Positions 3,261-60,044 of a stretch of 64,000 bases of DNA are shown here, one piece after another (positions within the stretch are counted from its first letter, which is position 1; each line of letters begins with the position of its first letter). The position numbers and the translations under genes were made by a program. Origin of the DNA: a virus (Duplodnaviria; Caudoviricetes); the IMG/VR virus record IMGVR_UViG_3300047160_001275, positions 1-64,000 of that record; one strand, written 5' to 3'. The notes below the pieces were generated by a model. It was not told the DNA's origin. It searched no databases and worked only from the letters and a program-made list of their open reading frames with translations.

Positions 3261-3827
3261 CTATTTCAGCCTGGCCACCCAGTCGAGCGGGGCCTCGATC
3301 AGCCTGGGGCCGCCCAGCATCAGCACCCAGACCGCAACATAGCCGCGCTTGGTCAGCCGCAAGACCTCGGCCAGCTTGTCCTTGAGCGGACCAGCGACGA
3401 TGCGCGCCTTGGCCCCCGGCTTAACCCAGCGCGGAGCGCGATAGCGTCCGTCGCCCGCAAGCTGATCGAAATCGCCAGCCTCGGCGCGAGCCTTGAGGTC
3501 GTCCACCACCGCCCCAGGAATCGGCTCTGGCCCCTCCTCGGTCGACAGGAAGCCAAGACAGTGCGGCACCACGTCGGGCGCGTCCAGCGCCCTCCTAAAG
3601 GCCGGGAAACGACCATCGGCCCTCACCAGCACGTAACCTGGCATGGCTGGCCGGTCGACCTCGACCAGTTGGCGGGCGCGCGACGGACCGCGCCTGCGGA
3701 TGAGGCGTTTGCCGGTGGGATAATAAGCCTCGATTGAGAGATCGTCGGCGCGATCCCGAACGGAACGTTCATGCTGGGGCTCGACGGCGACGCAATACCA
3801 TCGCCCGCTCCCTATAGCCTCATCCAC
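3261..3827 (-). CDS. nusG: NusG/RfaH-family transcription antiterminator (NGN + KOW)
   Basis: RWYCVAVEPQHE, PAMPGYVLV, KOW-like VKPGAKARIVAGPLKDKLAEV; GTG start at 3827 with GGAGGAG RBS (ORF track starts at 3914). Confidence 0.85.
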   Translation of the reverse strand: MDEAIGSGRWYCVAVEPQHERSVRDRADDLSIEAYYPTGKRLIRRRGPSRARQLVEVDRPAMPGYVLVRADGRFPAFRRALDAPDVVPHCLGFLSTEEGPEPIPGAVVDDLKARAEAGDFDQLAGDGRYRAPRWVKPGAKARIVAGPLKDKLAEVLRLTKRGYVAVWVLMLGGPRLIEAPLDWVARLK

Positions 3828-3901
3828 GTCTCCTCCAGCCTGCGCCAAGGGCTTTGTACGCAGGCTTGTCCGAAGGCCGCAACCCGACAGAAATGGGTTG
3901 A

Positions 3902-3942
3902 GTGCATCGACCACTTGAACGGCGCACGGGGCGCGCTATATT
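3902..3942 (+). promoter_or_regulatory. early sigma70-type promoter with dyad operator, copy 1
   Basis: GTGCATCG-N10-CGGCGCAC straddling -35 TTGAAC (3915-3920); 16-nt spacer; -10 TATATT (3937-3942). Confidence 0.7.
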
Positions 3943-3965
3943 CACGTCATTCGAAAGGGAAGCAC

Positions 3966-4223
3966 ATGAACACAATCTTCAACGAACCGGCCGCGCACAA
4001 CGTGAGCCACATCGAGGCGGAAGCCATCCACCACGCCCGCTACCGCGAGGATCGCGGCTTCGTCAGACTCACCCTCAAGCTCTCTGGCCTGCAAGGCGAC
4101 AAGCCGGTCGAGGGCGAGTTCGACATCTACGGCCCAGCCGAGGTCGCGGAGCGGTTCCGCGCCGTCGCCGAGGCGATCAACAAGGCGTTCGACGTCCAGC
4201 CCGACGAGGAGGAGGCCGCGTAA
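3966..4223 (+). CDS. hypothetical early protein
   Basis: First gene after promoter; AGGGAAGCA leader; translationally coupled chain follows. Confidence 0.7.
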   Translation: MNTIFNEPAAHNVSHIEAEAIHHARYREDRGFVRLTLKLSGLQGDKPVEGEFDIYGPAEVAERFRAVAEAINKAFDVQPDEEEAA

Positions 4224-4396
4224 TGAGACGCCAGATCAAGAAGCCATTCAGCGAAATGTCGCGGGACGAGAAGATCCGCGAGGCGAGAGCCGCGATCGAG
4301 CGGCTGAGCCATCCGCACAATCGCTATTCGCAGGAATGCCAGGACGCCATCAAGCGCTGGCAAGAAACCTTACGCAATCTGGGAGCGACAGAATGA
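4223..4396 (+). CDS. hypothetical early protein
   Basis: TAATG overlap with upstream stop, ATGA overlap downstream (MRRQIKKPFSEM...). Confidence 0.6.
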   Translation: MRRQIKKPFSEMSRDEKIREARAAIERLSHPHNRYSQECQDAIKRWQETLRNLGATE

Positions 4397-4782
4397 CTAA
4401 GCAACCCGAACCCCTGATCTGGCTCAGCGACGCACGGGGGATCTATATCCCGCGCGATTTCGCCCAGAGCTTCGCCGCCCGCGCCAAGAACGTCAGCGGG
4501 GTCACCGATGAAGAATGGGAGATCCTTGAGGCTGGCCCCGACCACGAACTCTATTGGGACGCGTGGTCGGACGTCGAGCAGAAGGCGACCGTCACCGACG
4601 ACGATGGCCACGTCTACAACGTCTATCAGGACGGCGATGTCTGGCTGATCCCCGACGGGATGGAATGGGATGAGGAACACGACTTCTGGCGCTGGCCTGA
4701 GCCGGAACCCGACCCCGACGATGCGCGCGAACAGCGCAACGAGCGCCGCGCCTATGACCGGGAGCACCCGATCGATGACTGA
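4393..4782 (+). CDS. hypothetical acidic early protein
   Basis: ATGA coupling; MTKQPEPLIWLSDARGIYIPRDF... Confidence 0.7.
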   Translation: MTKQPEPLIWLSDARGIYIPRDFAQSFAARAKNVSGVTDEEWEILEAGPDHELYWDAWSDVEQKATVTDDDGHVYNVYQDGDVWLIPDGMEWDEEHDFWRWPEPEPDPDDAREQRNERRAYDREHPIDD

Positions 4783-5032
4783 CAACCCAAAGGAAGAACT
4801 CATCATGCGCGTCAGGAACTACGAGGAAGCCATCAATCAGGCGCAGGCGAACGCCAACCGCACCCAGACCCCGCGCTGGATCTTCCGCGACACCAACGGG
4901 GTCTGGAACGTCGAAACCCGCCCCAACGCCGCTTCCATCATTCACCGCATCGACCCGAAGCCCACGGTCGAGACCGAACGGGCGATGCGCGCCCAGTACG
5001 ACGCTTTCTCCAGCCGACCGGTGAAGAAATGA
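4775..5032 (+). CDS. hypothetical early protein
   Basis: Overlapping start; protein-like composition (RVRNYEEAINQAQ...). Confidence 0.6.
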   Translation: MTDNPKEELIMRVRNYEEAINQAQANANRTQTPRWIFRDTNGVWNVETRPNAASIIHRIDPKPTVETERAMRAQYDAFSSRPVKK

Positions 5033-5176
5033 CCGAGACCAACGTGACCCCGCCGACCGTCCACCTGAACGGCAGCGGCAAGAAGAACCTGTCGCCGCCG
5101 TCGCGTCGGTGACGAAAGACCGCGCGCCTGCGCCAACAATTTGTCATGTCAACATAAATTGAATGGAATGTAAAAA

Positions 5177-5428
5177 ATGGAAATTCGAACAGCTATCATC
5201 CTGGCGACGATCGCCGGTTTTGCCATTGTCGGAGCCAATCAGGTCAAGGGGACGCCTGACGATACCCCTGTCGCATGGATGATCCGGCATCCGAGACTGG
5301 TCTTTGTGCAACTAACCGACCCACCGCCGGGAGGACGCCAAGGCTCAACGGCGGCTTTGGATTGGACCGTCCGACATGCCGACCTCGCCTTGGAAGTCCT
5401 CTCTGATCCGCCGCCGCACACACCGTAA
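5177..5428 (+). CDS. small protein with signal peptide or N-terminal TM
   Basis: MEIRTAIILATIAGFAIVGA; AT-rich upstream region. Confidence 0.5.
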   Translation: MEIRTAIILATIAGFAIVGANQVKGTPDDTPVAWMIRHPRLVFVQLTDPPPGGRQGSTAALDWTVRHADLALEVLSDPPPHTP

Positions 5429-5492
5429 GCCGAGTCTATGACGCTGCCCACCTATGGGCCTTGATCGAGGCCCGCCAACCGGAGGAACTGAG

Positions 5493-24316: not shown

Positions 24317-24561
24317 GGGCCGCTGCCGGGCGGGTGGCCGGGTCCGATCGCCGACCTCACCATGTCGCAATTTTCGTGGACCGGGATGAACCTTCCCGAA
24401 GTCGTCACGATCAGGCACCCCGTTCCGTGCGCCCAATGACCGGCCGAGAACGTCCTCGGGTCGCGGATCGAGGTGATCTCGTTCGGATTGATGTCGACCC
24501 TGTGGCTGCCGTCAGGGGTCGAGAACTGGGCTAGCACGAGGGCGACGGTGAGCAGGCTCAT
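24280..24561 (-). CDS. small hypothetical protein (possibly exported)
   Basis: Hydrophobic N-terminus, Cys pairs. Confidence 0.5.
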   Translation of the reverse strand: MSLLTVALVLAQFSTPDGSHRVDINPNEITSIRDPRTFSAGHWAHGTGCLIVTTSGRFIPVHENCDMVRSAIGPGHPPGSGPCTLVCGGSIRP

Positions 24562-25465
24562 GGCCGAGGTTCCAGTAATGACGCGCTCCCTCCCGCAGGG
24601 AGGCGAAGCGGAAATCAGGGACGATTTCCATGAGCTTATGGGTGTCGGCTTGGGTGAAGCTTTGATAACGTGGCCGCCACCCGTCAGGGAACGGCGCGAC
24701 CTCCAGCGCCACGCTCTGGCTCGCCTCCTCCATGCAGATCTTGGCGACGTCGACGAAGCTCACCGCGACCCCGGTGCCGACGTTGTAGACACCAGGCGGA
24801 AATGGGCCGCCGGTCAGGAGATCGCACGTCAGGCGAGCCACATCGTCGACATAGACCCAGTCGCGTTTGTAGGCGTCGCTGCCCTTGAGGAGACGGATCG
24901 GGACGCCAAGACGGATGGCGTCGAGGCACTTGCTGACGAAACTCTTCATGTCGCGCTTGTGGGCCTCGCCAGGCCCGTAGACGTTGAAGAGCCTCAAGCC
25001 CGCCCATAGCGGCGGCGCGGGTCTGAGCTTGGCCAGCGCCTGATCGGCGGCGAGCTTGCTGGAGGCATAGGGGCTAAGCTCCGAGAGAGACGCCGGATAA
25101 TCCTCCCGCTGCTCCTCTCGCCGCCCATAGACCGAGGCGCTCGACGCATAGAGGAACGGCCAGCGCCGATCGGCGCACAGGGTGAACAGGTCGATCGTCA
25201 GGTTGGTGTTAGTCTCGAACAGCGCCGCCGCGTCGTTGTCCAGGGTCGAGGTGCGCGCCCCCATGTGGATGACAGCGGTGTCGCGCGGGCAGGCGGACAG
25301 GAAGTTGAAGGCGTCGCGCGGGTCGATCAGCGTGTGCTTGAGGCGCTTACGGTCGATGTTGGCCCAGCGCCGGTCGATGGACGCAATCGGGCCGAGGCCG
25401 CGGCACCGGAGCGCGCGGACGATGGTCGAGCCGATGAAGCCTGCGCCTCCGGTGACGACGTACAA
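24512..25465 (-). CDS. hldD: ADP-L-glycero-D-manno-heptose 6-epimerase (extended SDR)
   Basis: VTGGAGFIGS, H.GA..ST, YASSASVYG, YASSK, FNVYGPGEAHK..MKS, RDWVYVDD, YNVGTG, YQSFTQAD. Confidence 0.88.
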   Translation of the reverse strand: MYVVTGGAGFIGSTIVRALRCRGLGPIASIDRRWANIDRKRLKHTLIDPRDAFNFLSACPRDTAVIHMGARTSTLDNDAAALFETNTNLTIDLFTLCADRRWPFLYASSASVYGRREEQREDYPASLSELSPYASSKLAADQALAKLRPAPPLWAGLRLFNVYGPGEAHKRDMKSFVSKCLDAIRLGVPIRLLKGSDAYKRDWVYVDDVARLTCDLLTGGPFPPGVYNVGTGVAVSFVDVAKICMEEASQSVALEVAPFPDGWRPRYQSFTQADTHKLMEIVPDFRFASLREGARHYWNLGHEPAHRRPRASPVLDP

Positions 25466-25911
25466 GCGATCCTCTCGATAAGCTGGGTGGTGCTGATCCG
25501 GTTGACCAAGGGGACGAACTCGACCCTGTCGACATGCTCAGCCCCAACGATCGTCTTGCCCTTCCAGTCCGCGCCCTTGAACAGGACATCGGGGGCGATC
25601 CCGGCGATCAGAGGATCGAGCATGTCCTCGCTGAACACGATCACCGCATCGACCGGCTTCAGCGCCGCCACCATTCGCGCCCGCTCATTGGCCGAATAGA
25701 TGGGGCGGCCCGGCCCCTTCAGCGCCCTGACCGCCGCATCGTCGCTGATGCCGACGATCAGCCGCCAGCAATGCGCCTTGGCGTGGACGAGCATCCCCAC
25801 ATGGCCGAGGTGGAGGAGGTCAAAGACTCCGTTCGTCCAGCCTATCGTGAGATTACTTTCACGCCATCGAGCCACGCGCCTCGCCAGCGTCGCTTGGGTG
25901 TCGATTCTCAT
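25327..25911 (-). CDS. hldC: D-glycero-beta-D-manno-heptose 1-phosphate adenylyltransferase (HldE/RfaE domain II)
   Basis: TNGVFDLLHLGH (HxGH), LIVGISDD..VR.LKGPGRPI, ER..MVAAL..VD.V..F, KGADW, ISTT. Confidence 0.9.
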   Translation of the reverse strand: MRIDTQATLARRVARWRESNLTIGWTNGVFDLLHLGHVGMLVHAKAHCWRLIVGISDDAAVRALKGPGRPIYSANERARMVAALKPVDAVIVFSEDMLDPLIAGIAPDVLFKGADWKGKTIVGAEHVDRVEFVPLVNRISTTQLIERIACTSSPEAQASSARPSSARSGAAASARLRPSTGAGPTSTVSASSTR

Positions 25912-26114
25912 CGCGCGAACGCGCCATGCAGATCTTCCTCGGCCGCCCGTCTGTAGCTTCTTCCGTCAATCCTTATCAGTCGATAACCCTGATCGTTGAC
26001 CGCCCCAGCGTCATTGCCTGCTGGATTGCGGTTAGAGGCGGTAGCGATCCACGTCCAATTGCCGGTCTCAAGTTCGTACAGAAGCAGTTGCTTCAGACGC
26101 ACCGCCGTCAACAT
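25908..26114 (-). pseudogene. internally deleted HNH-AP2 homing endonuclease relic
   Basis: N-terminus LT..RL..LL.Y..ETG.W.W...AG..AG...GY..I.IDG.SY joined directly to C-terminal AA...LHGAFAR; HNH core and AP2 domain missing. Confidence 0.7.
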
Positions 26115-26126
26115 CCTCGCCCCCTT

Positions 26127-27116
26127 TTAGTGAAGCCGATGGAGAGATTCTTCTCTCTCCACCGCCCGACCTTTTTTGCCAGCGTTGCCTGCGTGTCGAT
26201 CCGCAATGGCTTTGACCTCGTCCAGCGTCACCGCCGCCGTGCCCGCCCTGGAGACGGCGACCGCTCCCGCCGCGTTGGCGAACAGCGCCGCCTCCATCAC
26301 GCTTTGACCAGATCCCAGAAGGACCGCCATCGCAGCCGCAACCGTATCCCCAGCGCCGACAACGTCAACCGCGTCGATCTCCAGCGGCGGGATCGACAGC
26401 GCCCCGTTGCCGTCGGCGAGCATCATGCCGTTCGCGCCGCAGGTCAGGAGAACGTGATCAATCTCGGTCGCCTCGCGCAGCGCCATGGCCGCCGCCGCCG
26501 CCTCGAACTCGTTGCTCGGCGGGGAATGGTGCAAAGCTTCGCCGATCTCCTTGAGGTTGGGCTTGATCAGGGTCGCGCGCTTCCAGCACGGGGCCATCGG
26601 CGTCTTGGTGTCGACCACGGACGGGATCGAGCGTTTGCGCGCCTCCTCGATCACGGCCTTGGCCACCGCCGGGGTGACGCCGCCTTTGGCGTAATCTGAG
26701 ACCACAACCGCGTCCGGTTCGTCCGCCTTGGCGATCTCGGCCAGGATCAGCATCTCGGCGGCCTCGCTGAGGGCCTCGGTCCGCTCGATGTCCATGCGGA
26801 ACACCTGCCCGCCATTGACCAGCATCCGCTGCTTGACCGTGGTGACCCTTCCCTCGCAAGAGACGAGGCATGGCGTGATGCGCTCGGTCATGGCCAGCGT
26901 CTTGTTGAGGCTCGCGCCGCTGTCGTCCTTGCCGATCGCCGCGATCAAGGTCGCGTCTTGACCTAGCGCGGCGACGTTCATCGCCACATTGGCGGCGCCG
27001 CCTGGCATGACCATGCTGGCGAAGGGCATGAAGATCGGCGCAGGCGACTCCTGGCTCTCCCGTATCTTGCCGTGGATGTAGAAGTCGATCATCACGTCGC
27101 CATAGACGAGGATCAC
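26127..27116 (-). CDS. hldA: D-glycero-beta-D-manno-heptose 7-phosphate kinase (HldE/RfaE domain I, PfkB fold)
   Basis: GDVMIDFY, PGGAANVAMNVAALG, T.VKQR, VSDYAKG, LIKPNLKE, DVVGAGDTV, AN.AG..V...GT. Confidence 0.88.
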   Translation of the reverse strand: MILVYGDVMIDFYIHGKIRESQESPAPIFMPFASMVMPGGAANVAMNVAALGQDATLIAAIGKDDSGASLNKTLAMTERITPCLVSCEGRVTTVKQRMLVNGGQVFRMDIERTEALSEAAEMLILAEIAKADEPDAVVVSDYAKGGVTPAVAKAVIEEARKRSIPSVVDTKTPMAPCWKRATLIKPNLKEIGEALHHSPPSNEFEAAAAAMALREATEIDHVLLTCGANGMMLADGNGALSIPPLEIDAVDVVGAGDTVAAAMAVLLGSGQSVMEAALFANAAGAVAVSRAGTAAVTLDEVKAIADRHAGNAGKKGRAVEREESLHRLH

Positions 27117-27706: not shown

Positions 27707-30700
27707 TCAGGCCGCCTTGGCCGCCAGCCCAATAAAACTTAGGTCAGGCTCGCCAAACGCCTCGCGCGTCCAGCCGCTCCATGAGCGTAGGAACGGGGCT
27801 AAGGCCGTCCTGCGGTTGTCCCAGGCCAGCCTGAAGCTGTCGCAGGCGTTCCAGTGCCCAGGCCCGCGCTTGAAATGGCCGCCCTCCTTGGTCATCGGCA
27901 CCCCAGCCAGGATGATCCGGTCGTAGCCAAGCTGACGCGCCACCGCCACCGCGAACAGTCCGCTTGAGCCGCGCCAGTCGTCGGCGACGTCGGTGATCCC
28001 GGCAAACGGGTGCCTTCTATCGCCCTTGGTGTGCGCCCACACTTGGCTCGGCGGCAAGCGTCGGGTCCGCGCCCGCGCGCTCAGCCAGTCCTTTGCCTTG
28101 TTGGGATGGAGGGTGACGCCGACGCAGTCGCCGTCGAACTCACTGATCATGTCGTTGATCACGAACCATGTCGCCTGGACGCCGTCGAGCAGGGCGCGGG
28201 TCTGCTCGACCTCGTGCAGGACGTCGCCGCCGCCTCCGACCACCACCGCGATAGGCTTCGTTAGGGCTTGTCCATCAAAGTTGCCGGTCTGTTCCCGTCT
28301 GGTTCCTGATTCGGCGGCGAGACGCGGATTTAATTCGGCGGAAATTCGGGCGGCTCCCGGCTTGGCCGCCTCGAACGCCATCGACTCGATCTTGTTGAAG
28401 ACGTCGCCGATCACCTTGCCGTGGCCCTCGACGCCACGAAGCTCAGGATGGGGGCTTTGCCCGACCTCCCGCTCGCAGAGATATGAGAAACCAGCGTAGC
28501 GAAGCAGGGACGCCATCACGCTCACCGTCCACGCCATCTGGTGGCCATGTGAGAACAGGATCGCCTTGGCCGCGCCATGGGCGGAAGCCTCGCCGCTCCA
28601 TTTCTTGGTGAACTCGAAATACGCCTGATCGTCGCAGGCCATGATCTTCTCGATGCTCGGCACCGTCACCCGCAAGATCCCGCCGGGGGCGAGCACCCGG
28701 AACGCCTCCTCGAAAAACCGGATTGCCTCGTGGCAAGAGACGTGCTCGACGCAGTGCTCGATGAAGATGTAGCTCGCCGAATTGTCGCGCCATGGCAACG
28801 GGCGGGCGATGTCGACGTCGGAATCATGGTTCTCCCAGCCGGGGAGCTTGTTGTCGCCGCAGCCGAGGTTGAGCTTGATCAGGGCCGTCCGCGAATCGAC
28901 GCGGGATGAACTGGAAAGGGGACTGACAGCCTCCCGGCCCACCAGCGCCGCCTCGACGAACCGATCGTAGCAGAAGACATCGTTATGGCAGTGCGTCACC
29001 CAGTCGAGATCGAGCGCAACGACGTTGGCGTTAGTGATTTGATGCTTGTCGCCGCGCCAGCCTTTGATCGGCAGCATGTAGAGGTTGGGATCGCCGACGA
29101 TCCCGCGCACCACCACCTCAGGGGTTGGCCTGACCTCCCGGTGCGGCCAATCGTAACGCTGGGTGAACTGGTTCCGTTTCACCCAGTCGACCGAGAAGGC
29201 CATCAGCCCCGTCTCGACCCATCCGGCGAAGTCGCGCTCCATGCCGCTGACCGGGATCGACGCGACCGGCTTGCCCCATTTGACCATGTCGGCGACGAGG
29301 TTGCGCACCGGCAGGCGCAGGAGCGAGTCGCCCTCGATATGGGCGACGAACTCGTAGCCGCGTTCGACCGCCAGATCGAGCCCCTTGGTGAACGCCCGTC
29401 CCCAGCCGTCGCGGCCCTTGCGTGAGAGATGGCCGACGTTGTCGCCGAACTGGAACACCTCGCAGCGCGGTCCATTGCTTGGCTGGATAATCGGCAGAGG
29501 CGAAGCGCTGTCGACAAGTAGGAAGTCGCAGTCCGGGTTGAGCGCGCGGTGCAGGAAGAGCCACTGCACCGTCAGCTTCTGCCGGTCGGCCGAGTCGACG
29601 TAGGTGGTGCCGAAAATCAGAGTGCGGGAGCGAGCGCCGCCTTCTGGAGGGGGTGCCGCGCCCGCTCCCTCCGTCGGTCCCGCAGCGGGGGTCGTCTTCG
29701 GGAGCGACGTGCGCCATTGCGCGGCAAACTCCCTCACCCTGTCAAGCGCGGGCGGCAGGTCGATCTTCTTGTCGCCGCAGTCGTGCCGCTCGGTGTGGCA
29801 GTCGCACGGCTGGATCGGGTCTATGCCGAGAGTCGGCGCAAGATGCGCGCCTGCCCGCTGAGTCGTCCGGTAGGATTCCCGGCCGCCATAGACGCATATC
29901 GACGGCGTTCCGACCGCCTGAGCCAAGACCGGGGCAAATCCGGCATTACAAAAGACGATGGCAGCCTGTTTGAATAGCGCAGCCATGCTCTGGAACGTGA
30001 GTTCGCCGCCATGGAATTTCAGGTCCGCTTCTGGTTCCGGCCCGACGATCCACTCCTCCCCCGGCTGGAGGTCGGCGATCGACACCACGAAATAGCCATC
30101 CTTCGCCGCCTTGTAGAGCGTCTCGTAGCCCTCTGGGTCTGGGTTGCGGTTGGCGCTGTTCCATTCTCTTCTCAGGACGATGGGCCGATAGACGAGGAGT
30201 GGCTTCCCTCCGGTGTCGAACGCGGGCGCTCGCCATGAGCCGGGAACCGGCAGCGAAAAGTCGAGCGGCTTCAGGTGGTCGACCGGATGGCCCTGCTCGC
30301 TGATCGCCCCCGCCATCGCTTGAAGAATCGTGCCGTAATGGTCGATGGCGGGCTTCTTGTACCACAATTTGATGTGATGGGCGGACGCTGGCGCAGCGGG
30401 AACGACCCCGAACAGGCCCCGCTCGCGCGCGATTGTCTTGGCCTGCGCTCTAAGCCTTGTGTCCTTGAAGATCAGGTGCAGCCGGTCGCCGATCAGGTCA
30501 TGATAGACATGCCAGTGCGAGGTGTGCAGCCACACCTCTTCCCGCTTCATCAGTTCCCGCAGGATCGCCCGCTGGTGGAGGTTGTCGCCGATGCCATACA
30601 TGCCGTCGATGACCACCGCGCCTCCGGGGCGAGCCATATCGGCTCGGTGCTCGGAGATCTCAAGTTCGTGCGGCGACCGATAGAGGGCCTGGACCAACGT

Positions 30701-30814
30701 GTACGGCAGGTCGACCCCTTGGATCGCCTCCCCCGGCTTGACCCGCACCTCCAGTCCAAACGAATCGTACACGATTCGCGTCGCTCGGCTATTATTTCGG
30801 AGGTCATACAACAT
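27707..30814 (-). CDS. glycosylation polyprotein: capsid-protein-like N-module + GT9 heptosyltransferase + second GT-like domain + SAM methyltransferase + DUF115/GT42-like domain
   Basis: Start taken at ATG 30814 (MLYDLRNN). GT9: GMYGIGDNL..RAILREL and MAALFKQAAIVFCNAGFAPVLAQAVGTP..CVYGG (~29715-30625). GT-like: FLLVDSASP...GWGRAF..G...HIEGDS (~28945-29625). MTase: LNLGCG...EHCVEH...RVLAPGG (~28365-28880). Last domain: VVVGGG...GSSGLFAV..A..LGY.RIIL.G.PM (~27710-28257). Confidence 0.8.
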   Translation of the reverse strand: MLYDLRNNSRATRIVYDSFGLEVRVKPGEAIQGVDLPYTLVQALYRSPHELEISEHRADMARPGGAVVIDGMYGIGDNLHQRAILRELMKREEVWLHTSHWHVYHDLIGDRLHLIFKDTRLRAQAKTIARERGLFGVVPAAPASAHHIKLWYKKPAIDHYGTILQAMAGAISEQGHPVDHLKPLDFSLPVPGSWRAPAFDTGGKPLLVYRPIVLRREWNSANRNPDPEGYETLYKAAKDGYFVVSIADLQPGEEWIVGPEPEADLKFHGGELTFQSMAALFKQAAIVFCNAGFAPVLAQAVGTPSICVYGGRESYRTTQRAGAHLAPTLGIDPIQPCDCHTERHDCGDKKIDLPPALDRVREFAAQWRTSLPKTTPAAGPTEGAGAAPPPEGGARSRTLIFGTTYVDSADRQKLTVQWLFLHRALNPDCDFLLVDSASPLPIIQPSNGPRCEVFQFGDNVGHLSRKGRDGWGRAFTKGLDLAVERGYEFVAHIEGDSLLRLPVRNLVADMVKWGKPVASIPVSGMERDFAGWVETGLMAFSVDWVKRNQFTQRYDWPHREVRPTPEVVVRGIVGDPNLYMLPIKGWRGDKHQITNANVVALDLDWVTHCHNDVFCYDRFVEAALVGREAVSPLSSSSRVDSRTALIKLNLGCGDNKLPGWENHDSDVDIARPLPWRDNSASYIFIEHCVEHVSCHEAIRFFEEAFRVLAPGGILRVTVPSIEKIMACDDQAYFEFTKKWSGEASAHGAAKAILFSHGHQMAWTVSVMASLLRYAGFSYLCEREVGQSPHPELRGVEGHGKVIGDVFNKIESMAFEAAKPGAARISAELNPRLAAESGTRREQTGNFDGQALTKPIAVVVGGGGDVLHEVEQTRALLDGVQATWFVINDMISEFDGDCVGVTLHPNKAKDWLSARARTRRLPPSQVWAHTKGDRRHPFAGITDVADDWRGSSGLFAVAVARQLGYDRIILAGVPMTKEGGHFKRGPGHWNACDSFRLAWDNRRTALAPFLRSWSGWTREAFGEPDLSFIGLAAKAA

Positions 30815-52732: not shown

Positions 52733-54670
52733 CTAATAGATTCCTGGGTCGAGGTAATAAACCATCGAGGGCCGGGAAAATTTCGGGTAACAATAGAGAT
52801 ACCCGGCCAGTCCAGGCTGCGGCGACGACAGGGTGAGCGTCATCGAAAACCGGCAGCCCGCCCTGAAGGTCGCGGCGCCGTCGGTCACCGGGACGCCGTC
52901 GACCGCCGACGCATAGCCCGGCTCGCTCGACGCGCTGGTCCCCGCCGTGATGCAGAAGAACACGCGCCCCGGATTGCTCGCCGTCTTGATGACCTGCCCC
53001 ACGGTGTAGGCGGTCGAGTTGGCCCTCAGCGGCGCGCCCGTGTCCCAGGCCGAGCCGTCGGCGGGCAGGGCCGTTGGCGACGCCAGCGACAGCACCCCGC
53101 CGCGCGCGTAGGAGGATTGCGGGGTCGAGGACGAGCCGAGGTACTCGACGTCGAACCACGCCTCGGCGTTGGTCGGCACCCGCGTGTCGTTGGCCACGCC
53201 GAAGATCGAGACGTTGCGGTTGGCCCCAGTGACCGTGTTCCAGACCGCCAGCGGGATGGCGTTGTAGACAGACATCCAGTTGACGGCGTTGGCGCTGGTG
53301 GCGACCTGATGCGAAACCGCGACCCCGCCGTCGGCCGCCCCGCCCGTGCGGACGACCGTGGTCGACGTCGTCTCTGTGGCGAGACTGGTGTGCCGTTCGT
53401 TGCGGTAGGCGGCGCCGCCGCTGTCGCAGCGGTTGAGGTCGATCACCAGACTGTCGGGCATAGCGGAGTCGCCGCCCCGATAGACGCTGGCCATGGTGGA
53501 TGAGAGCTTGCAATCCTTGAACACGATGTAGCCAAAGGGCACGCTGGCGTCGTAGTTGTTCGGCCCGACCAAAGGGGTGCTGCTGACCACGTTGGTGCTG
53601 AGGTCACAGCCCTCGATGACGGCGTTCACCTGCTGACTGCTGCCGCCGAATATCTCGTTGGCGGAGCCGCCGATTGATCCGGTGATCGAACACCCCTCCA
53701 GCCTGACCGAGCCGAACAGCGTGAACACGTGCCCCGCATTGCCCAAACACTGCAAGCTGCAATTCCTGAACGTGATCAACCCGCCGCAATTGTTCTGGTC
53801 GCCGAGGCCGTAATTGTATGGATTCGTGTTGGCGGAGCCCGATCCAACGACACACTGCTCAAATATGACGCGCGATCCCTGCGCGTTCCCGACCGACCCG
53901 TTGTTTCCGCCGCAATATGCGGTCACCCCGTAAACGTAACTGTTAAACGCTCCGGTTGCTGTGCTGTACCAAAACGGCGTCCCATTGTTGGAATAAAATG
54001 TCGCCCCCGGTTTCAAATTGGCGGACGTCAATGGGAACGCCGCCGTATGATCGACAGAGAGCAGTCGCGTGGTTAGCCCATACGCCCAAGTCGTGGTCCA
54101 AGGCCCTTCGTTATGATCGTCGCCGACAAATATCGTTACGCCATTATTTCGCGTCCAAGTGAACTGGAAAACATTGTTCAAGCTATTGATCGGAGCCGCC
54201 CAGCGCGCCGTGAAAGCGCTGATCGCGCCGACGCAGGTCCAGACCGCGCTGGCGTCTGTCGTCGTCGATCCGGCGGTCGTGTTCCAGGCTGGCTCGGCCC
54301 CCGTGCCGCCAGCCCCGGCTGTGGTGCAGATGAAATAAGATGTCGCCGCGACGTTCTTGATGAACTGCCCGAGCGCCGGGGTCTGGCTCGCCAGCCAGGA
54401 GTTGCTGTTGGCGCTGTCGCCGTTCGGCGCAGGCTGAGCCGAGCATTCCTGCCACACCGGGCCACCCGTCTCGGTGGTCTTTGCTCCCTGCCCCGTGCTC
54501 CAAGTCGGCTCAGTCGAGAGCGACGTTCCGGCCGTGATGCAGATGTTGCAGCGGTTCGACGCAGATCCGCGAACAATCTGCCCGACCGTATAGGCGTGAG
54601 TCGCCGCCCATGCCGCGACCGCAGTGTAGGCGACCGAATCGATGTAGATCGCGCTTTCGGTGTAAGCCAC
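52733..54670 (-). CDS. fibre protein with three CBM5/12-like repeats and a beta-helix-like core
   Basis: Repeats W.A..AYTVGQ...C.TAGTS..EP.W...TT....W.C; AT-richer central segment. Confidence 0.65.
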   Translation of the reverse strand: MAYTESAIYIDSVAYTAVAAWAATHAYTVGQIVRGSASNRCNICITAGTSLSTEPTWSTGQGAKTTETGGPVWQECSAQPAPNGDSANSNSWLASQTPALGQFIKNVAATSYFICTTAGAGGTGAEPAWNTTAGSTTTDASAVWTCVGAISAFTARWAAPINSLNNVFQFTWTRNNGVTIFVGDDHNEGPWTTTWAYGLTTRLLSVDHTAAFPLTSANLKPGATFYSNNGTPFWYSTATGAFNSYVYGVTAYCGGNNGSVGNAQGSRVIFEQCVVGSGSANTNPYNYGLGDQNNCGGLITFRNCSLQCLGNAGHVFTLFGSVRLEGCSITGSIGGSANEIFGGSSQQVNAVIEGCDLSTNVVSSTPLVGPNNYDASVPFGYIVFKDCKLSSTMASVYRGGDSAMPDSLVIDLNRCDSGGAAYRNERHTSLATETTSTTVVRTGGAADGGVAVSHQVATSANAVNWMSVYNAIPLAVWNTVTGANRNVSIFGVANDTRVPTNAEAWFDVEYLGSSSTPQSSYARGGVLSLASPTALPADGSAWDTGAPLRANSTAYTVGQVIKTASNPGRVFFCITAGTSASSEPGYASAVDGVPVTDGAATFRAGCRFSMTLTLSSPQPGLAGYLYCYPKFSRPSMVYYLDPGIY

Positions 54671-55928: not shown

Positions 55929-56255
55929 TCAGCGCGGCGAGCGCTTGACGTGGCCGTGCGGCTCTGGCGCAGGCTCAGGAGCAGCGTCGGCAGGAGGGCT
56001 GACGAATGGGCGCAGCGGAGCGAACTCCGACTCGAACTCGCCCTCGAACGGCCCCTTGTCCGTATATCGGACCTCTTGACCTTCGGCCGCCTTCGCCGCG
56101 CCCTTGAGCAGGAAAGCGAGCAGCGGCCGGGGGAGCACGATCTCCTTCGTCTCGCCCGGCCCGATGCGGTACTGCTCCATGCCGTCAGGGCCGCCGTGGA
56201 TGACGCGCGGCGCGGGTGTGACGTTGGCGACTTCGACTCTGACCAAATCTGGCAC
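55929..56255 (-). CDS. small protein immediately downstream of major capsid gene (probable capsid-associated)
   Basis: GGAGG RBS; N-domain V.NVTPAPRVI..G.E.YRIGPGE....LP plus Pro/Ala tail. Confidence 0.7.
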   Translation of the reverse strand: MPDLVRVEVANVTPAPRVIHGGPDGMEQYRIGPGETKEIVLPRPLLAFLLKGAAKAAEGQEVRYTDKGPFEGEFESEFAPLRPFVSPPADAAPEPAPEPHGHVKRSPR

Positions 56256-56265
56256 ACGCTCCTCC

Positions 56266-57210
56266 TTAGATGCCGTCAGTGTAACAGAACGCGCCAGGCC
56301 GCCGGATCTCGGTCGAGCCGATCCTGAACACGCCGGGGATGTCGAACGTCATCGGCCCCGTCTGCCAGACCGAGAAGAACCGATGCGGCATCGGGATGTG
56401 CAGCTTCACGATCTGCGGGTCTCTCCGATAGGTCACCATTCTCGCGGTGCCGCCGATCCCCATCGTGTCAAGGTTGATGGTGGCCAGGATGGTGAGGTCT
56501 TGGCCGGTGGTTTGCTTGTAGAGGTTGTACTTCTGCAAGTACTCCAGCGCGTTGCCATAGGTGTTAGGCACGCGGGTGTTGGCCAGAAGCTGGAGGTTGG
56601 CGATCGGCAGCAGCACCGTGTCGGCCATCTCGACCGTCAATGACCCCTGATAGACCTGGGTCAGAGAGTTCTGGACGTCGGCGATCATCTGATCGGCCGT
56701 CTTGTTGACCCACAAGGACGATGAGCCGGTGCCGGTCGCTGGCGCAGTGACTTGCTGGACGAGGGCGTTGTTGAACAGGCCGGTGACATTCTTGCGCTTG
56801 TCGCCGACGCGGGCCATCCGGTCGACGAACTCCTCATAGGCGCGTCTGGCCGCCGCCGCCCTTTCGGTCGACAAGTTGAGGTTGGGGATCATCATCGCCT
56901 GCCCCAGTTCCTCAAGCGTATAGCGGTAGCCGATCGCCGCCATCTCGATCGATTGCTCGTATTTGTTGCGGTTGATGTCGGCGACCGGCATGGCGGTTGC
57001 GTAGCCGTCGTACCAATCGGCGTTGCCGACCTTGTCGACCGAGTAGTAAGTGACGCTCTTCGCCCATTCGGACGCCGAGCTATCGATCGGGATCAGCCGT
57101 GTATAGAGAATATCCGGGTACTGGATGCGATAGACTTCCGGCTCTATGTGAGACGTTTGAGAAACGAGGAACCCAAACGCTTGTTGGGTGTCGTACATAG
57201 GGAATCGCAT
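56266..57210 (-). CDS. major capsid protein (DUF2184/encapsulin-like HK97 fold)
   Basis: FL.SQ...IE..VY..QYPDI.Y..LIP, YRYT.EEL..A, A.AARRAYEE, GL.N, MP.RF, G..IRRP. Confidence 0.9.
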   Translation of the reverse strand: MRFPMYDTQQAFGFLVSQTSHIEPEVYRIQYPDILYTRLIPIDSSASEWAKSVTYYSVDKVGNADWYDGYATAMPVADINRNKYEQSIEMAAIGYRYTLEELGQAMMIPNLNLSTERAAAARRAYEEFVDRMARVGDKRKNVTGLFNNALVQQVTAPATGTGSSSLWVNKTADQMIADVQNSLTQVYQGSLTVEMADTVLLPIANLQLLANTRVPNTYGNALEYLQKYNLYKQTTGQDLTILATINLDTMGIGGTARMVTYRRDPQIVKLHIPMPHRFFSVWQTGPMTFDIPGVFRIGSTEIRRPGAFCYTDGI

Positions 57211-57318
57211 AGCTGTCTCCTCGCCCGCCGTTGCGCCATGCGACGTGCCTAGTCTTGAGATTTAGTTGTGGGGAGGAAGAGAAGCCCGCTTAGACCATCG
57301 CGGACGTAGTACGAACGA

Positions 57319-57855
57319 TCAGGCCATCGAGGTCAGACGAATGACCGCCAGACCGTTGAAGTTGATTTGCGGCTGCGACGAGTTCGGCAACGAGGTCATC
57401 CAGATCGAGTCCTCGATCAGCACCGCATTGGCGATGCCAGAGCCGCCAAGCTGGCCGGTGACCGAGTTGAAGTAGGCCGGGTTGCCCGACGCCACATTGC
57501 CGAGCGGCTGGACCCAGATGTCGCCGAAGGTTTGCACCGGCACCGTGTCGGTGTCGTAGAACGTGTCGATCTTGCGCGATGCGCCGCTGGGAAGCGGCGT
57601 GGTGGCGACCGCCAAGACGCTGGAGGCGTGAGTGATGCCGACGAACGCGCCGCCAGAGAGTGCGCCCAAGGTGCAGCCCTTGTCGCTCTTGTAGCCCTGA
57701 CACACGGCCAAGCCGAACCCGACGCCGTTGCCGGTCGGCTCCTCAAGGATGCGCGGATCGAGTTGCGGCTGGCCTGCGGTCGAGGCGGTCATGCCGTTCT
57801 GGGCCACGGTTTCGTATTGCTGATAAGTCGTTTGGGTGGGTGCCGGGACGATCAT
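57319..57855 (-). CDS. head decoration/cement protein
   Basis: Between DUF2213 and MCP; G..FG.AV.QG...G.F.GI...G.IWV pattern. Confidence 0.7.
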   Translation of the reverse strand: MIVPAPTQTTYQQYETVAQNGMTASTAGQPQLDPRILEEPTGNGVGFGLAVCQGYKSDKGCTLGALSGGAFVGITHASSVLAVATTPLPSGASRKIDTFYDTDTVPVQTFGDIWVQPLGNVASGNPAYFNSVTGQLGGSGIANAVLIEDSIWMTSLPNSSQPQINFNGLAVIRLTSMA

Positions 57856-57935: not shown

Positions 57936-60044
57936 TCAGTTGCGCCGGTCGGCCATTGGGGTCTTGTAGTCGTCCTGAATGCGCTTGCAGTACTCGTCGT
58001 AAGCGATGTCCTTGTCGGTCATCTGCACGCCGCTCTGATAGAAGCCAGCGCTGCGGCGGACGCCGTCCGACATGCCGTCGGCCATCCTGCGCACGCCCGA
58101 TGCTTGCGCCTGGGCGGGGCCAGCGACTGCAAGATTGAACGCGCCGAGAACCTGGGCGTCGTCCCAGCCGTCGATGAGCTTCTCGCCGCCCATCGCCGCC
58201 GCCGCGACCGCACGGCGGATCTCCTTCAGGCTCTGGGTTCCAAACTCATACGAGTCGCCGAGAACCTTGCGCGCCTGCGCCTTGACGGTGTCGCGGTCGC
58301 GCAGGATCTGCTCCTGCCGCTCCTCGCTGAACTCGGAATCCCTGAGCTTCTTCTTCAGGAGCGCAATCTCGCCGTCGCGGGCGGCGATCGAGTCGCGATA
58401 GCCGCGCTCCTTCTTCTCACGCGCCTGCTCAGCCGCCACCGCGTCTTGATCGCGGGCGTCGGTGTCGTCTTCGTCATCGTCGTTGTCGTCGCCGCCATTG
58501 CCATTCTTCTTCTTGAACGGCGTGGCCTTCTTGCCGCCGAAGTTCTCGGCCTGATCGGCCACAAACTGTTCGAGGATCGACGCCGAAGCGCCATCGGAGA
58601 CCTGCACCGGCAGGCCCCGGATCATCACCGTAACCATGTTCTCTGCTCCTTCCACGCCGCCATCGGCGTCTCCAGTTTCACCCAGTCCAGGCTCGCCCAG
58701 TTCGCGGGCGCGGCGGTTGATCAAGGCGCGGGCTGCCGCTGGGTTCTTGGCCCGCCCAATCGCCTGCTTGGCGTTAGCGAGATCGGCCTTGTTCTTGATC
58801 GGAAAGCCGCCATGCGGCAGCGCCTTGCCCTGCTTGGCGAGGCTCTTGCGTTCTTCTTCGCTGACGTCGCGGTCGTAGACCGCGGCCTCCGGGTATTTGG
58901 CGAAGTAGGCTTCCAGATCGGCGTCGCGGGTTTGCTTGCTCTTCGGCTGCCAGCGCTGAGCCTCGGTCGGCTTGCGCCAGCCGCGTGGGCCGAGCGGGCC
59001 TTCGTAGGAGTCAGGCTCACGCTCTGGCTCTTGGCCGGGCTTGCGCCAGCCGCGCCGGGCCAAATAGCCTTCAGAGGTGTCTGGGCTGGCCTTGGCTTCC
59101 TTCTCCCGCGCCGCCCAGGTGCGCTTCCGCGCCTCCAGCGCCGCCGCTCGCGCCTCCTCGCTCCAGGCGTCGTCGATGTCCGCGTCGCCGCCTTGGGTCG
59201 GCCGCTCGCGATAGCCGCAGGACGGGCATTCGTTGGCGTCCATCATCGCGCCACAGTTCGGGCACGGGCTCTTGGTCACCCCGTCGCCGAACCGTAAGGA
59301 GCGCCCGCCCCTGGCCACCGGCACCAGGGCGTGATGATTGGCTCTGATGTCCCGCTGCACCCCGTCATAAGCCTCGCCGTCGGGCGTCTGGCCTGGGGTC
59401 CAATCAATGTCGGTGGTGTAGCCGACGCTGAGTTCACGAACCCCGTTCTCGTAAGCCTCGATCGCCGCCGCGTCGGTCAGCATCAGCGGCACCCGCACAT
59501 ACTCGCCGTCCCTGACCACGTCGGAGCCAGAGAAGCCCTTGGCCACCTTGGCCCACGTCTTGGTGTCGACCATGCGCGACGGATGGGTGAGGGTGATCGG
59601 CTTGTTGGCCATCGAGTGCATGGCCGAAGCCGAGAACACTTCTTCCGGCGGACGATAGAGGGTGACGAAGTCGCGATCCCTCAGCCCGACCTCGCGGCCC
59701 CGGTAGCGCTGGGTGCCGACGCGGGCCACCAGCGCCTCGCACACCATGTAGCCGTCGCTAGTTCGCCTAACGTCGTCGAGCAGCGCCACGTCGTCGAGCA
59801 GCACGTCGCGGGTCCACATCTGTCCCTCCTGGTCGAGCAGGGCGTCGGCGGCGTGGGGCGGATGGGCCTGCCGCCACGCCGAGGACTTCTTGCCTCGGAG
59901 CTTGCCTTGCTTGGTTGCGGTCGCAGTGCCGGGCTTAAGGTTTCCGGCCTTCTGCATGGCTGCGGTGGCGATGGCCCAGGCCGAGGACTCGGAATGGCCC
60001 TTGGCCTGAATCTTCTCGGCCGCCTTGTGCAGGATGACGGGCAT
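57936..60044 (-). CDS. DUF2213 head maturation/scaffold protein with extra N-terminal and internal modules
   Basis: DGY...ARVGTQ.Y...E...LYRPPEEVFS..AM.S.A.KPITL.HP...RELSVGY...Q.DI.ANH.ALV..ARGG; coiled-coil scaffold-like C-terminus. Confidence 0.88.
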   Translation of the reverse strand: MPVILHKAAEKIQAKGHSESSAWAIATAAMQKAGNLKPGTATATKQGKLRGKKSSAWRQAHPPHAADALLDQEGQMWTRDVLLDDVALLDDVRRTSDGYMVCEALVARVGTQRYRGREVGLRDRDFVTLYRPPEEVFSASAMHSMANKPITLTHPSRMVDTKTWAKVAKGFSGSDVVRDGEYVRVPLMLTDAAAIEAYENGVRELSVGYTTDIDWTPGQTPDGEAYDGVQRDIRANHHALVPVARGGRSLRFGDGVTKSPCPNCGAMMDANECPSCGYRERPTQGGDADIDDAWSEEARAAALEARKRTWAAREKEAKASPDTSEGYLARRGWRKPGQEPEREPDSYEGPLGPRGWRKPTEAQRWQPKSKQTRDADLEAYFAKYPEAAVYDRDVSEEERKSLAKQGKALPHGGFPIKNKADLANAKQAIGRAKNPAAARALINRRARELGEPGLGETGDADGGVEGAENMVTVMIRGLPVQVSDGASASILEQFVADQAENFGGKKATPFKKKNGNGGDDNDDDEDDTDARDQDAVAAEQAREKKERGYRDSIAARDGEIALLKKKLRDSEFSEERQEQILRDRDTVKAQARKVLGDSYEFGTQSLKEIRRAVAAAAMGGEKLIDGWDDAQVLGAFNLAVAGPAQAQASGVRRMADGMSDGVRRSAGFYQSGVQMTDKDIAYDEYCKRIQDDYKTPMADRRN

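What the first reader, a model, noticed from the sequence alone, without database searches (positions are those of the whole stretch)
30647..30814. Glycosyltransferase polyprotein starts with a module resembling the small post-capsid protein: a possible capsid-docking tag
Seen: the first ~45 aa of the polyprotein (YDLRNNSRATRIVYDSF-GLE-VRVKPGEAIQGVDLPYTLVQAL) align by eye with the N-domain of 55929-56255, encoded right after the major capsid gene (VEVANVTPAPRVIHGGPDGMEQYRIGPGETKE-IVLPRPLLAFL). About 13 identities (N,A,R,G,E,R,PGE,LP,L,L) with a matching hydrophobic pattern. Inference: a capsid-binding domain has been fused to the enzyme to tether four glycan-building activities onto the assembling head. 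This is the best in-sequence support that the acceptor is the virion and may be an undescribed targeting mechanism.
Basis: partly seen in the sequence, partly recalled or inferred. Interest (0 to 1): 0.85.

Follow-up and report, generated by a model that had tools for sequence, protein, structure and literature searches.

The report
Shared domain: head protein and glycosyltransferase
The first 55 residues of this phage's large sugar-transferring enzyme are a true second copy of the small protein encoded next to the capsid gene, an unnamed domain that most likely serves as an address tag, although what it binds has not been shown.

Summary
By pairwise comparison the two stretches look like chance (BLASTP nothing; Smith-Waterman p about 0.02). 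Profiles show they are homologous. An HMM of 80 foreign enzyme N-termini hits only two of 1170 six-frame segments of the window: the enzyme start (1.8e-14) and the post-capsid ORF (1.6e-7). hhalign gives 98.7 %, E 2.3e-16.

The module is translated, because the conserved start is ATG 30814. It folds alone (four strands, a helix, a strand) and hangs on a proline-rich linker of 3-45 residues. Complete genomes of this roughly 75-kb uncultured phage clade carry exactly two copies: a free protein of about 100 aa right after the PF09950 capsid gene, and one on the enzyme. Elsewhere the module heads three other kinds of downstream domain, sometimes in tandem. It has no Pfam, PHROG or PDB match.

The carrier's first catalytic domain resembles heptosyltransferases, with the protein heptosyltransferase TibC the top structural match. 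ADP-heptose genes lie beside it.

The capsid-docking reading is plausible but unproven. There is no binding evidence, the complex predictor was closed, the module evolves much faster than the capsid protein, and a separate cement protein exists. Rivals are module-to-module pairing and a TibC-like built-in accessory domain.

The parts
30641..30814 (-). Enzyme-borne copy of the module (residues 1-58 of the polyprotein). Predicted strands 2-7, 13-16, 22-25, 30-35, helix 38-46, strand 51-55. The start codon is ATG 30814.
   Evidence: HMM hit 1.8e-14 and 1.3e-18. AF2 pLDDT 92-96 over residues 1-50. Conserved start.
30620..30649 (-). Linker between the module and the catalytic domain (residues 56-65).
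   Evidence: pLDDT about 80. In 81 homologues this linker is 3-45 aa (median 18), 24 % Pro and 14 % Ala.
29699..30619 (-). GT-B, GT9-like heptosyltransferase domain (residues 66-372).
   Evidence: Foldseek top hit TibC 4rap, E 5e-9. VIA: TibC Z 19.4, GT9 3tov Z 19.2, WaaF 17.5, WaaC 17.0.
29777..29806 (-). Conserved Cys-x-Cys-His ... His-x-Cys cluster (residues 337-346), at about the place of TibC's iron finger.
   Evidence: C337, C339 and C346 are invariant or nearly so in 59 sequences. TibC's iron finger uses C339, C342, C358 and C370 (PMC4358343). Equivalence is inferred, not tested.
27707..29698 (-). Rest of the 1035-aa polyprotein. It holds a class I SAM methyltransferase (Pfam match residues 671-714, window 28673-28804) and two further domains not identified here.
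   Evidence: PF08241, 6.1e-6, above the cut-off. Domains 2 and 4 have no Pfam or PDB sequence match.
55929..56255 (-). Free-standing small protein (108 aa) with the module at residues about 4-69 (window 56049-56246), followed by a low-complexity tail with a basic end.
   Evidence: HMM 1.6e-7 and 1.5e-15. AF2 gives the same order of four strands, helix, strand, with pLDDT about 90 in the module.
56266..57210 (-). Major capsid protein gene, directly upstream of the small protein.
   Evidence: PF09950, 3.1e-76; phrog_264.
57319..57855 (-). Cement (decoration) protein gene, upstream of the capsid gene.
   Evidence: PF22758 Phage_cement, 1.3e-17.
24512..27116 (-). ADP-heptose supply genes just downstream of the polyprotein and a 197-aa methyltransferase: HldA-like kinase 26127-27116, HldC-like adenylyltransferase 25327-25911, HldD epimerase 24512-25465.
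   Evidence: NCBIfam TIGR02198 3.1e-76, TIGR02199 2.4e-41, TIGR02197 2e-67. These are the best hits but lie below the equivalog cut-offs.

Best explanation
The first 55 or so residues of the polyprotein are an independently folding, flexibly tethered copy of a previously unnamed phage domain. Its free-standing form is the small protein encoded between the major capsid gene and the head-tail adaptor genes. The domain is most likely a protein-recognition (address) module rather than a catalytic part. In this reading both copies recognise the same head-associated partner, most plausibly the PF09950 capsid shell. The fused copy would then park the heptose-glycan-building enzyme on assembling heads late in infection, while co-encoded HldA/C/D enzymes supply ADP-heptose. 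Shown here: the homology, the translation, the domain's autonomy, the two-copy pattern per genome, its portability between enzymes, and the TibC-like/GT9 fold of the carrier. Inferred: that it binds anything, that the partner is the capsid, and that virion proteins are the glycan acceptors.
For: Homology. Autonomous fold in both contexts. Variable Pro/Ala-rich linker of 3-45 aa. Present in 81 of 119 enzyme homologues and absent from the rest, so it is dispensable for catalysis. Exactly two copies in the window's own genome and in 11 further complete or near-complete relatives, free after the capsid gene plus fused on the enzyme. The free copy sits directly after a PF09950 capsid gene in all 18 contexts examined, with a cement gene upstream and, in one locus where it was annotated, an E217_gp27-type adaptor downstream. 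The module also heads three other kinds of downstream domain, one module per cluster, and occurs in tandem in three proteins, as binding modules often do. The same polar residues are conserved in 126 free and 97 fused copies (Asn 94/100 %, Arg 98/95 %, Asp 91/84 %, Asp 69/76 %), which argues for a shared constraint. The carrier's GT domain has TibC as its top structural match. TibC glycosylates a protein, and its own N-terminal beta domain is needed for acceptor glycosylation; PMC4358343. ADP-heptose genes lie in the same late-strand block after the tail genes. Among 40 records with a module-less GT, only 1-2 have a PF09950 capsid gene.
Against: There is no binding evidence of any kind. The capsid protein is 54-76 % identical across the clade while the free module is only 17-35 % identical. 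Free and fused copies of one genome are no more alike than copies from different genomes (28.8 vs 28.2 %, p = 0.29). A separate PF22758 cement protein is encoded. In the solved relatives Pam3 and E217 such trimers fill the threefold sites and no further ordered shell protein was built (PMC9942802, PMC10329688); their post-capsid proteins are not detectably homologous to this module. GT homologues work without the module in two PF09950 phages (G004, G051). The link between the module and the PF09950 clade may simply be shared ancestry. No fold match gives a functional precedent.
Confidence: 0.4

Rival explanations
1. Module-to-module pairing. The enzyme's module pairs with the free protein's module, so the small protein is the enzyme's adaptor or is itself the acceptor, with its Pro/Ala-rich tail (about 5 % Thr) being glycosylated. 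The capsid need not be touched by the module.
For: No complete genome carries the fused copy without the free one (12 of 12), while the free copy occurs without a fused one (G003, G004). A PF09950 phage that lacks the free protein (G051) also has a module-less GT. The free proteins share an architecture of module, acidic low-complexity linker and basic tip.
Against: The free copy is universal in the clade, so 'fused implies free' may be plain inheritance. There is no within-genome covariation between the two copies. G003 keeps the free protein with no glycan enzyme at all, so the free protein has a role of its own.
Confidence: 0.2
2. Built-in accessory domain. The module is the phage counterpart of the N-terminal beta domain of TibC-type protein heptosyltransferases, used for acceptor recognition or oligomer assembly. 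The free-standing paralogue does an unrelated head job, for example as a packaging or assembly helper in the gene position of lambda gpFI. The two copies would share a fold but not a partner.
For: TibC has an N-terminal beta-barrel (residues 1-97) whose deletion abolishes TibA heptosylation (PMC4358343). The structural alignment to TibC starts at model residue 1 (chain 30), whereas other GT9 structures align only from residue 56-65. Some residues (Thr33, Pro10, Gly20) are conserved mainly in the free copies.
Against: The module alone does not retrieve TibC; no chain reaches Z >= 5. The profile finds no TibC by sequence. The long, variable Pro-rich linker argues against a packed integral domain. 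The module is missing from a third of homologues and heads other downstream domains. The main polar residues are conserved alike in both copies.
Confidence: 0.2
3. Packaging tag. The module directs proteins into the head interior, as T4 capsid-targeting sequences or encapsulin cargo tags do, so that the enzyme and the small basic-tailed protein travel inside the virion.
For: The module is N-terminal. The free protein's last 12 residues are basic (mean +1.9; 71 % at +2 or more) and some relatives end in a HeH-like motif, which would fit DNA contact. First-stage notes report other enzymes fused to portal and MuF in this genome; this was not checked here.
Against: The unfused ADP-heptose genes beside the enzyme point to action in the producing cell. 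The tag is a folded 55-aa domain, not a short peptide. No protease site is known.
Confidence: 0.08
4. Chance resemblance or untranslated leader. The similarity is accidental, or the gene really starts at ATG 30637.
For: Pairwise statistics alone are weak. The collection's own gene call (1021 aa) starts 14 codons inside the module.
Against: Profile evidence is decisive. The start is conserved, with upstream stops in relatives.
Confidence: 0.01

Closest known systems
N-terminal beta-barrel domain of TibC/AAH autotransporter heptosyltransferases (BAHT family; PMC4358343)
   Same: It is a small beta-rich domain ahead of a GT-B heptosyltransferase domain. It is not catalytic but is needed for glycosylating a protein acceptor. 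The carrier domains superpose (Z 19.4).
   Different: TibC's domain has 97 residues in two four-stranded sheets and packs on the catalytic domain. This module has about 55 residues (four strands, a helix, a strand) on a flexible Pro-rich linker. It is optional, moves between enzymes and also exists as a free gene. No sequence similarity or module-level fold match to TibC was found.
Capsid-targeting tags (T4 capsid targeting sequence; encapsulin cargo-loading peptides; scaffold fusions)
   Same: Each is a terminal add-on that would address an enzyme to an HK97-fold shell.
   Different: Those are short linear peptides that load cargo inside the shell. Here the tag is a folded domain with a free paralogue, and neither a shell face nor any shell contact is established.
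Phage lambda gpFI (DNA-packaging helper encoded right after the capsid gene E); from my own knowledge, not tested
   Same: The gene position directly after the major capsid gene is the same. Both are small proteins with a folded domain plus a flexible charged segment.
   Different: No sequence or fold link was found, and gpFI has no copy on any enzyme.
Trimeric cement/decoration proteins (PF22758; Pam3 gp6, E217 gp24)
   Same: They are small head-module proteins that bind the outside of PF09950-type capsids.
   Different: This phage has its own PF22758 gene upstream of the capsid gene. The module protein has no Pfam match and a different predicted topology.
Mycobacteriophage virion glycosylation (cited in PMC11256854; the primary paper was not read here)
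   Same: Phage-encoded glycosyltransferases are thought to glycosylate capsid and tail proteins.
   Different: I know of no targeting domain described there. The chemistry (heptose) and the host group differ.

Membership tests
New module family (defined here) | About 55-aa profile: Y-D-I-x-N-P-T-x-x-x-R-V-I-Y-D-G ... I-x-I-x-P-G ... V-x-L ... L ... D-L | tested here: met
   Both window copies match: 1.3e-18 and 1.5e-15. hhalign between the two sub-families gives 98.7 %. 317 representative proteins match at E<=1e-3.
BAHT / TibC-type protein heptosyltransferase | GT-B catalytic domain superposable on TibC | tested here: met
   Foldseek E 5e-9. VIA Z 19.4, rmsd 5.2, 298 residues aligned. Other GT9 enzymes score almost as high (19.2, 17.5, 17.0).
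BAHT / TibC-type protein heptosyltransferase | Four-cysteine iron finger | tested here: inconclusive
   Three conserved Cys plus two His at residues 337-346, against C339, C342, C358 and C370 in TibC (PMC4358343). No residue-level alignment was obtained.
BAHT / TibC-type protein heptosyltransferase | N-terminal beta-barrel packed on the catalytic domain | tested here: inconclusive
   The alignment to TibC reaches model residue 1. The module alone gives no TibC match, and the linker is long and variable.
BAHT / TibC-type protein heptosyltransferase | ADP-heptose donor and a protein acceptor | not testable with these tools
   The only indirect support is the adjacent HldA/C/D-like genes.
Pfam GT9 (PF01075) | Sequence match above the gathering score | tested here: not met
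   E 0.11, 12.3 bits against a cut-off of 22. The similarity to GT9 is structural only.
Phage cement/decoration protein (PF22758, PF09956) | Profile match by the small post-capsid protein | tested here: not met
   P0002 has no Pfam family at E<=0.01 and four relatives have none at E<=1. PF22758 matches a different gene, 57319-57855.
Short capsid-targeting peptide (T4 CTS, encapsulin cargo tag) | Short linear peptide | tested here: not met
   It is predicted with high confidence as a folded five-strand, one-helix domain.
Lambda gpFI-like packaging helper | Gene directly after the capsid gene; folded domain plus flexible charged segment | tested here: met
   Position. Tail composition. These features are not specific to gpFI.
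Lambda gpFI-like packaging helper | Sequence or fold similarity to gpFI | tested here: inconclusive
   gpFI is not among the listed fold or sequence matches. It was not compared directly.

The most novel reading that the evidence does not exclude
A portable capsid-address domain. One 55-aa fold would park both a free head-accessory protein and a multi-domain heptose-glycan assembly enzyme on the PF09950 shell. That would be the first described targeting mechanism for phage virion glycosylation, and a ready-made tag for displaying enzymes on capsids.
Probability: 0.3. Interest if true: 0.8.

Novelty: new variant of a known kind. Interest (0 to 1): 0.6.

Why it matters
Virion glycosylation is documented for a few mycobacteriophages, but how the enzymes find their targets is unknown, and almost nothing is known for phages of Gram-negative hosts. 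Here an unannotated domain family (317 clusters at 50 % identity) links the head gene block to the glycan-enzyme block. Each genome has one free copy next to the capsid gene and one copy at the head of a glycan cluster. This gives a concrete, cheap experiment: does the 55-aa module bind capsids, or does it bind its free twin? If it is an address tag, it explains how a cytoplasmic enzyme is focused on assembling particles, and it offers a natural handle for capsid display. If it is not, the family still marks a conserved, unexplained head-module protein.

Tried and rejected

2. Fold searches of the free-protein model found nothing usable. Foldseek PDB had nothing at E<=0.001; the best was PsaD at 0.07. 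BFVD gave only weak hits to unnamed small phage proteins. VIA against 48,161 chains gave no Z>=5. A profile search against PDB sequences gave a best E of 0.01 to a putative anti-sigma factor, judged chance. The ESM Atlas returned only unnamed viral clusters.

3. Pfam and PHROGs gave nothing for the module or the free proteins.

4. A word-based homologue search with P0002 found only itself. tblastn of P0002 and of two consensus-like relatives against 50,697 phage records found nothing, so no cultured member is known.

5. The positional counterparts in cultured phages (Pam3 gp8, RHEph04 gp19, Pa193 gp27) look vaguely similar by eye, but the HMMs do not detect them. They are treated as positional analogues only.

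6. An N-x-S/T sequon idea for the invariant Asn was rejected. Position +1 is often Pro, and position +2 is Ser or Thr in only 10 of 15 sequences.

7. Within-genome covariation of the two copies gave a null result.

8. A tree of 223 modules is unresolved (65 columns). The labels cluster (22 changes against 73 when shuffled), but no origin story can be read from it.

9. Split clusters were checked for 'one module per enzyme'. Only one enzyme per cluster carries the module.

10. Four representative-search hits (P0124, P0204, P0218, P0245) are repeat proteins and were discarded as spurious.
Full report
WHAT IS THERE

The window is 64 kb of a 76,249-bp IMG/VR virus record. On the minus strand a head-to-tail structural block runs from about 60,000 down to about 31,000.
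- DUF2213 protease/scaffold protein: 57936-60044.
- PF22758 cement protein: 57319-57855.
- PF09950 major capsid protein: 56266-57210.
- A 108-aa ORF: 55929-56255.
- Further virion genes follow.

The big ORF comes next. Its frame is open from 30961, but homologues start at the Met of ATG 30814, giving 1035 aa ending at 27707. After it lie a 197-aa methyltransferase and HldA-, HldC- and HldD-like genes (24512-27116), that is, ADP-heptose supply.

CHECKING THE OBSERVATION

As a pair, the two stretches are not convincing.
- BLASTP gives no alignment at E<=100.
- The best local score is 33, against 22.5 +/- 3.8 for shuffled sequence, p = 0.0175. That is weak for a match picked by eye from a whole window.

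Relatives settle the matter.
- A search with residues 1-420 returned 120 homologues, most of them about 1000 aa from contigs of 70-90 kb. About two thirds begin with the same M-x-Y-D-x-x-N...R-I-x-Y-D...P-G...V-x-L pattern.
- An HMM of 80 such N-termini, with the window excluded and filters off, was run over all 1170 six-frame segments of the window. It found exactly two matches: the enzyme's own start (1.8e-14) and the post-capsid ORF (1.6e-7). The next best was 0.38.
- In six related IMG/VR loci fetched through the capsid protein, the small ORF right after the capsid gene matched the enzyme-module HMM every time, at 1e-18 to 1.5e-6.
- Profile against profile, 15 enzyme modules versus 7 post-capsid proteins, gives 98.7 % probability and E 2.3e-16 over 46 columns.

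The profile alignment is significant, and the module is translated: Asn7 is invariant in 59 sequences, and several relatives have stop codons within six codons upstream of the conserved Met. The collection's gene call (1021 aa, starting at GTG 30772) would cut off the first strand and the invariant Asn, so it is probably 14 codons short.

ANATOMY

AlphaFold2 on residues 1-420 with 59 sequences gives mean pLDDT 91.
- The module is strands 2-7, 13-16, 22-25 and 30-35, helix 38-46 and strand 51-55.
- A linker follows at residues 56-65.
- A GT-B domain comes after that.

The free protein is predicted with the same order of elements, followed by a poorly ordered tail. That alignment mixed both sub-families, so the second model is not independent of the first.

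In 81 of 119 enzyme homologues that carry the module, the linker is 3-45 residues (median 18), 24 % Pro and 14 % Ala. The other 38 start directly at the catalytic domain. The module is therefore an optional, tethered, self-contained domain.

Among 126 free representatives the median length is 107 aa. The tail is net acidic (-2.7), but the last 12 residues are basic (+1.9; 71 % at +2 or more). A few end in a HeH-like motif.

The same polar positions are conserved in free and fused copies: Asn 94/100 %, Arg 98/95 %, Asp 91/84 % and Asp 69/76 %. A few positions (Thr33, Pro10, Gly20) are conserved mainly in the free form.

DISTRIBUTION

- The window's genome has exactly two copies.
- Ten further records of the clade, most with direct terminal repeats and 71-78 kb long, show the same pair: a small ORF directly after the capsid gene, and the N-terminus of the 794-1282-aa enzyme. 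G001 and G002 do too.
- One complete genome (G003) has the free copy only, and no part of the polyprotein.
- G004 has the free copy and a module-less enzyme.
- No complete genome has the fused copy alone.
- Of 80 IMG/VR loci with a related GT, 17 have the module fused. The other 63 have none within 3 kb.
- Of 40 module-less records searched whole, only one clearly has a PF09950 capsid gene (G051). That record has no module anywhere.
- Free and fused copies from one genome are no more alike than copies from different genomes (28.8 vs 28.2 %, permutation p = 0.29). They are old paralogues without concerted evolution.

A profile search of 1.84 billion representatives found 317 proteins at E<=1e-3 and 77 at E<=1e-10. 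Most are proteins of 72-200 aa. Some have the module at the N-terminus of other downstream domains:
- a domain like the polyprotein's last domain (P0166; weak MptE/DUF115 hit, E 0.023);
- an unnamed domain of about 290 aa (P0146, P0181, P0193);
- a domain resembling the polyprotein's second domain (P0241, P0125).

Three proteins carry two modules in tandem (P0096, P0125, P0144). In three such split clusters only one gene carries the module.

Two divergent free proteins again sit in the order cement, capsid, small protein; in one of them an E217_gp27-type adaptor gene follows.

No Pfam, PHROG, PDB-sequence, Foldseek, VIA or ESM Atlas match names the domain. No cultured phage in the 50,697-record collection has it at BLAST level.

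THE CARRIER ENZYME

The first catalytic domain is structurally a GT9-like GT-B enzyme.
- The top match is TibC, the iron-containing heptosyltransferase that glycosylates the TibA autotransporter: Foldseek E 5e-9; VIA Z 19.4, rmsd 5.2, 298 residues aligned.
- Close behind are a Veillonella GT9 (Z 19.2), WaaF (17.5) and WaaC (17.0).
- By sequence it falls below the Pfam GT9 threshold.
- A conserved Cys-x-Cys-His...His-x-Cys cluster (residues 337-346) lies about where TibC has its four-Cys iron finger (PMC4358343). This equivalence is inferred.
- TibC also has an N-terminal beta-barrel that is needed for TibA glycosylation (PMC4358343). Only the TibC alignment extends to model residue 1, but the module alone does not retrieve TibC.
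- A class I methyltransferase domain is confirmed.

HOW IT MOST LIKELY WORKS

The module is optional for catalysis, tethered, portable between enzymes, sometimes doubled, and keeps the same polar residues whether free or fused. That is the profile of a recognition or address domain.

The free copy's fixed place between the capsid and adaptor genes points to a head-associated partner. So do the late-operon setting of the enzyme and its nucleotide-sugar genes, and the protein-glycosylating nearest structural relative. I put 0.4 on the reading that both copies dock on the capsid shell, so that the enzyme works on assembling heads.

The evidence against should be stated plainly.
- Nothing here shows binding.
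- The capsid protein is far more conserved than the module.
- A separate cement protein exists. In the solved relatives Pam3 and E217 no extra ordered shell protein was built (PMC9942802, PMC10329688).
- In Pa193 the product of the gene after the capsid gene was detected in virions by LC-MS but could not be placed in the map (PMC11456595). None of these three positional counterparts is detectably homologous to the module, so they bear only on gene position.

The rivals are:
- module-to-module pairing with the free protein as adaptor or acceptor (0.2). It fits 'fused never without free', but that pattern may be plain inheritance.
- a TibC-like built-in accessory domain whose free paralogue has another job (0.2).
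- a tag for packaging inside the head (0.08).
- chance (0.01).

VERDICT

The capsid-docking interpretation is a reasonable leading hypothesis but is untested. Two simple binding experiments would decide between the main readings.

Noticed in passing
window 24512-27116 (-): HldA-like kinase, HldC-like adenylyltransferase and HldD-like epimerase lie directly downstream of the polyprotein and a 197-aa methyltransferase. This is a phage-borne ADP-heptose supply. The scores are the best hits but fall below the NCBIfam equivalog cut-offs.
   Followed up: partly
window 29777-29806 (-), polyprotein residues 337-346: A conserved Cys-x-Cys-His...His-x-Cys cluster sits in the GT domain at about the position of TibC's four-Cys iron finger. 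It is a possible small metal site.
   Followed up: partly
window 57319-57855 (-) versus 57290-57703 (-): Two overlapping ORFs lie upstream of the capsid gene. The 178-aa frame is the real gene (PF22758 cement protein, 1.3e-17). The 137-aa frame has no match.
   Followed up: yes
window 30772 and 56246: The public gene calls for both module-bearing genes are shorter than the conserved forms: 1021 aa against 1035 aa, and 105 aa against 108 aa. The enzyme's call removes the first strand and the invariant Asn.
   Followed up: yes
window 52733-54670 (-): A 645-aa protein has three stretches matching phrog_20658 ('head decoration') and no Pfam match. It may be a second, large head-surface protein and a candidate glycan acceptor.
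   Followed up: no
L006:5363-5980 (G003): The free module protein of the one complete genome without any glycan enzyme is twice as long (205 aa) and carries N-P-D-P-x-K-P-L repeats in its tail.
   Followed up: no
P0165, P0190 (representative hits); L092:4421-4780, L093:4475-4861: Some free module proteins end in a HeH-like helix pair. The non-homologous post-capsid proteins of Pam3 and RHEph04 do too. This slot after the capsid gene may often hold proteins with a DNA-binding-like end.
   Followed up: no
L112 (Pseudomonas phage PAJU2, NC_011373) 3504-5447: In D3-like and PAJU2-like siphophages, related module-less GT9-like and methyltransferase genes sit inside the head-tail connector gene block, between the head closure and tail terminator genes. 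This is another hint that such enzymes act on virions.
   Followed up: no
P0107, P0108, P0117, P0119: Mesorhizobium genomes and prophages encode polyproteins with the domains in a different order, with the last domain first and no module. They are possible cultured entry points to this enzyme family.
   Followed up: no
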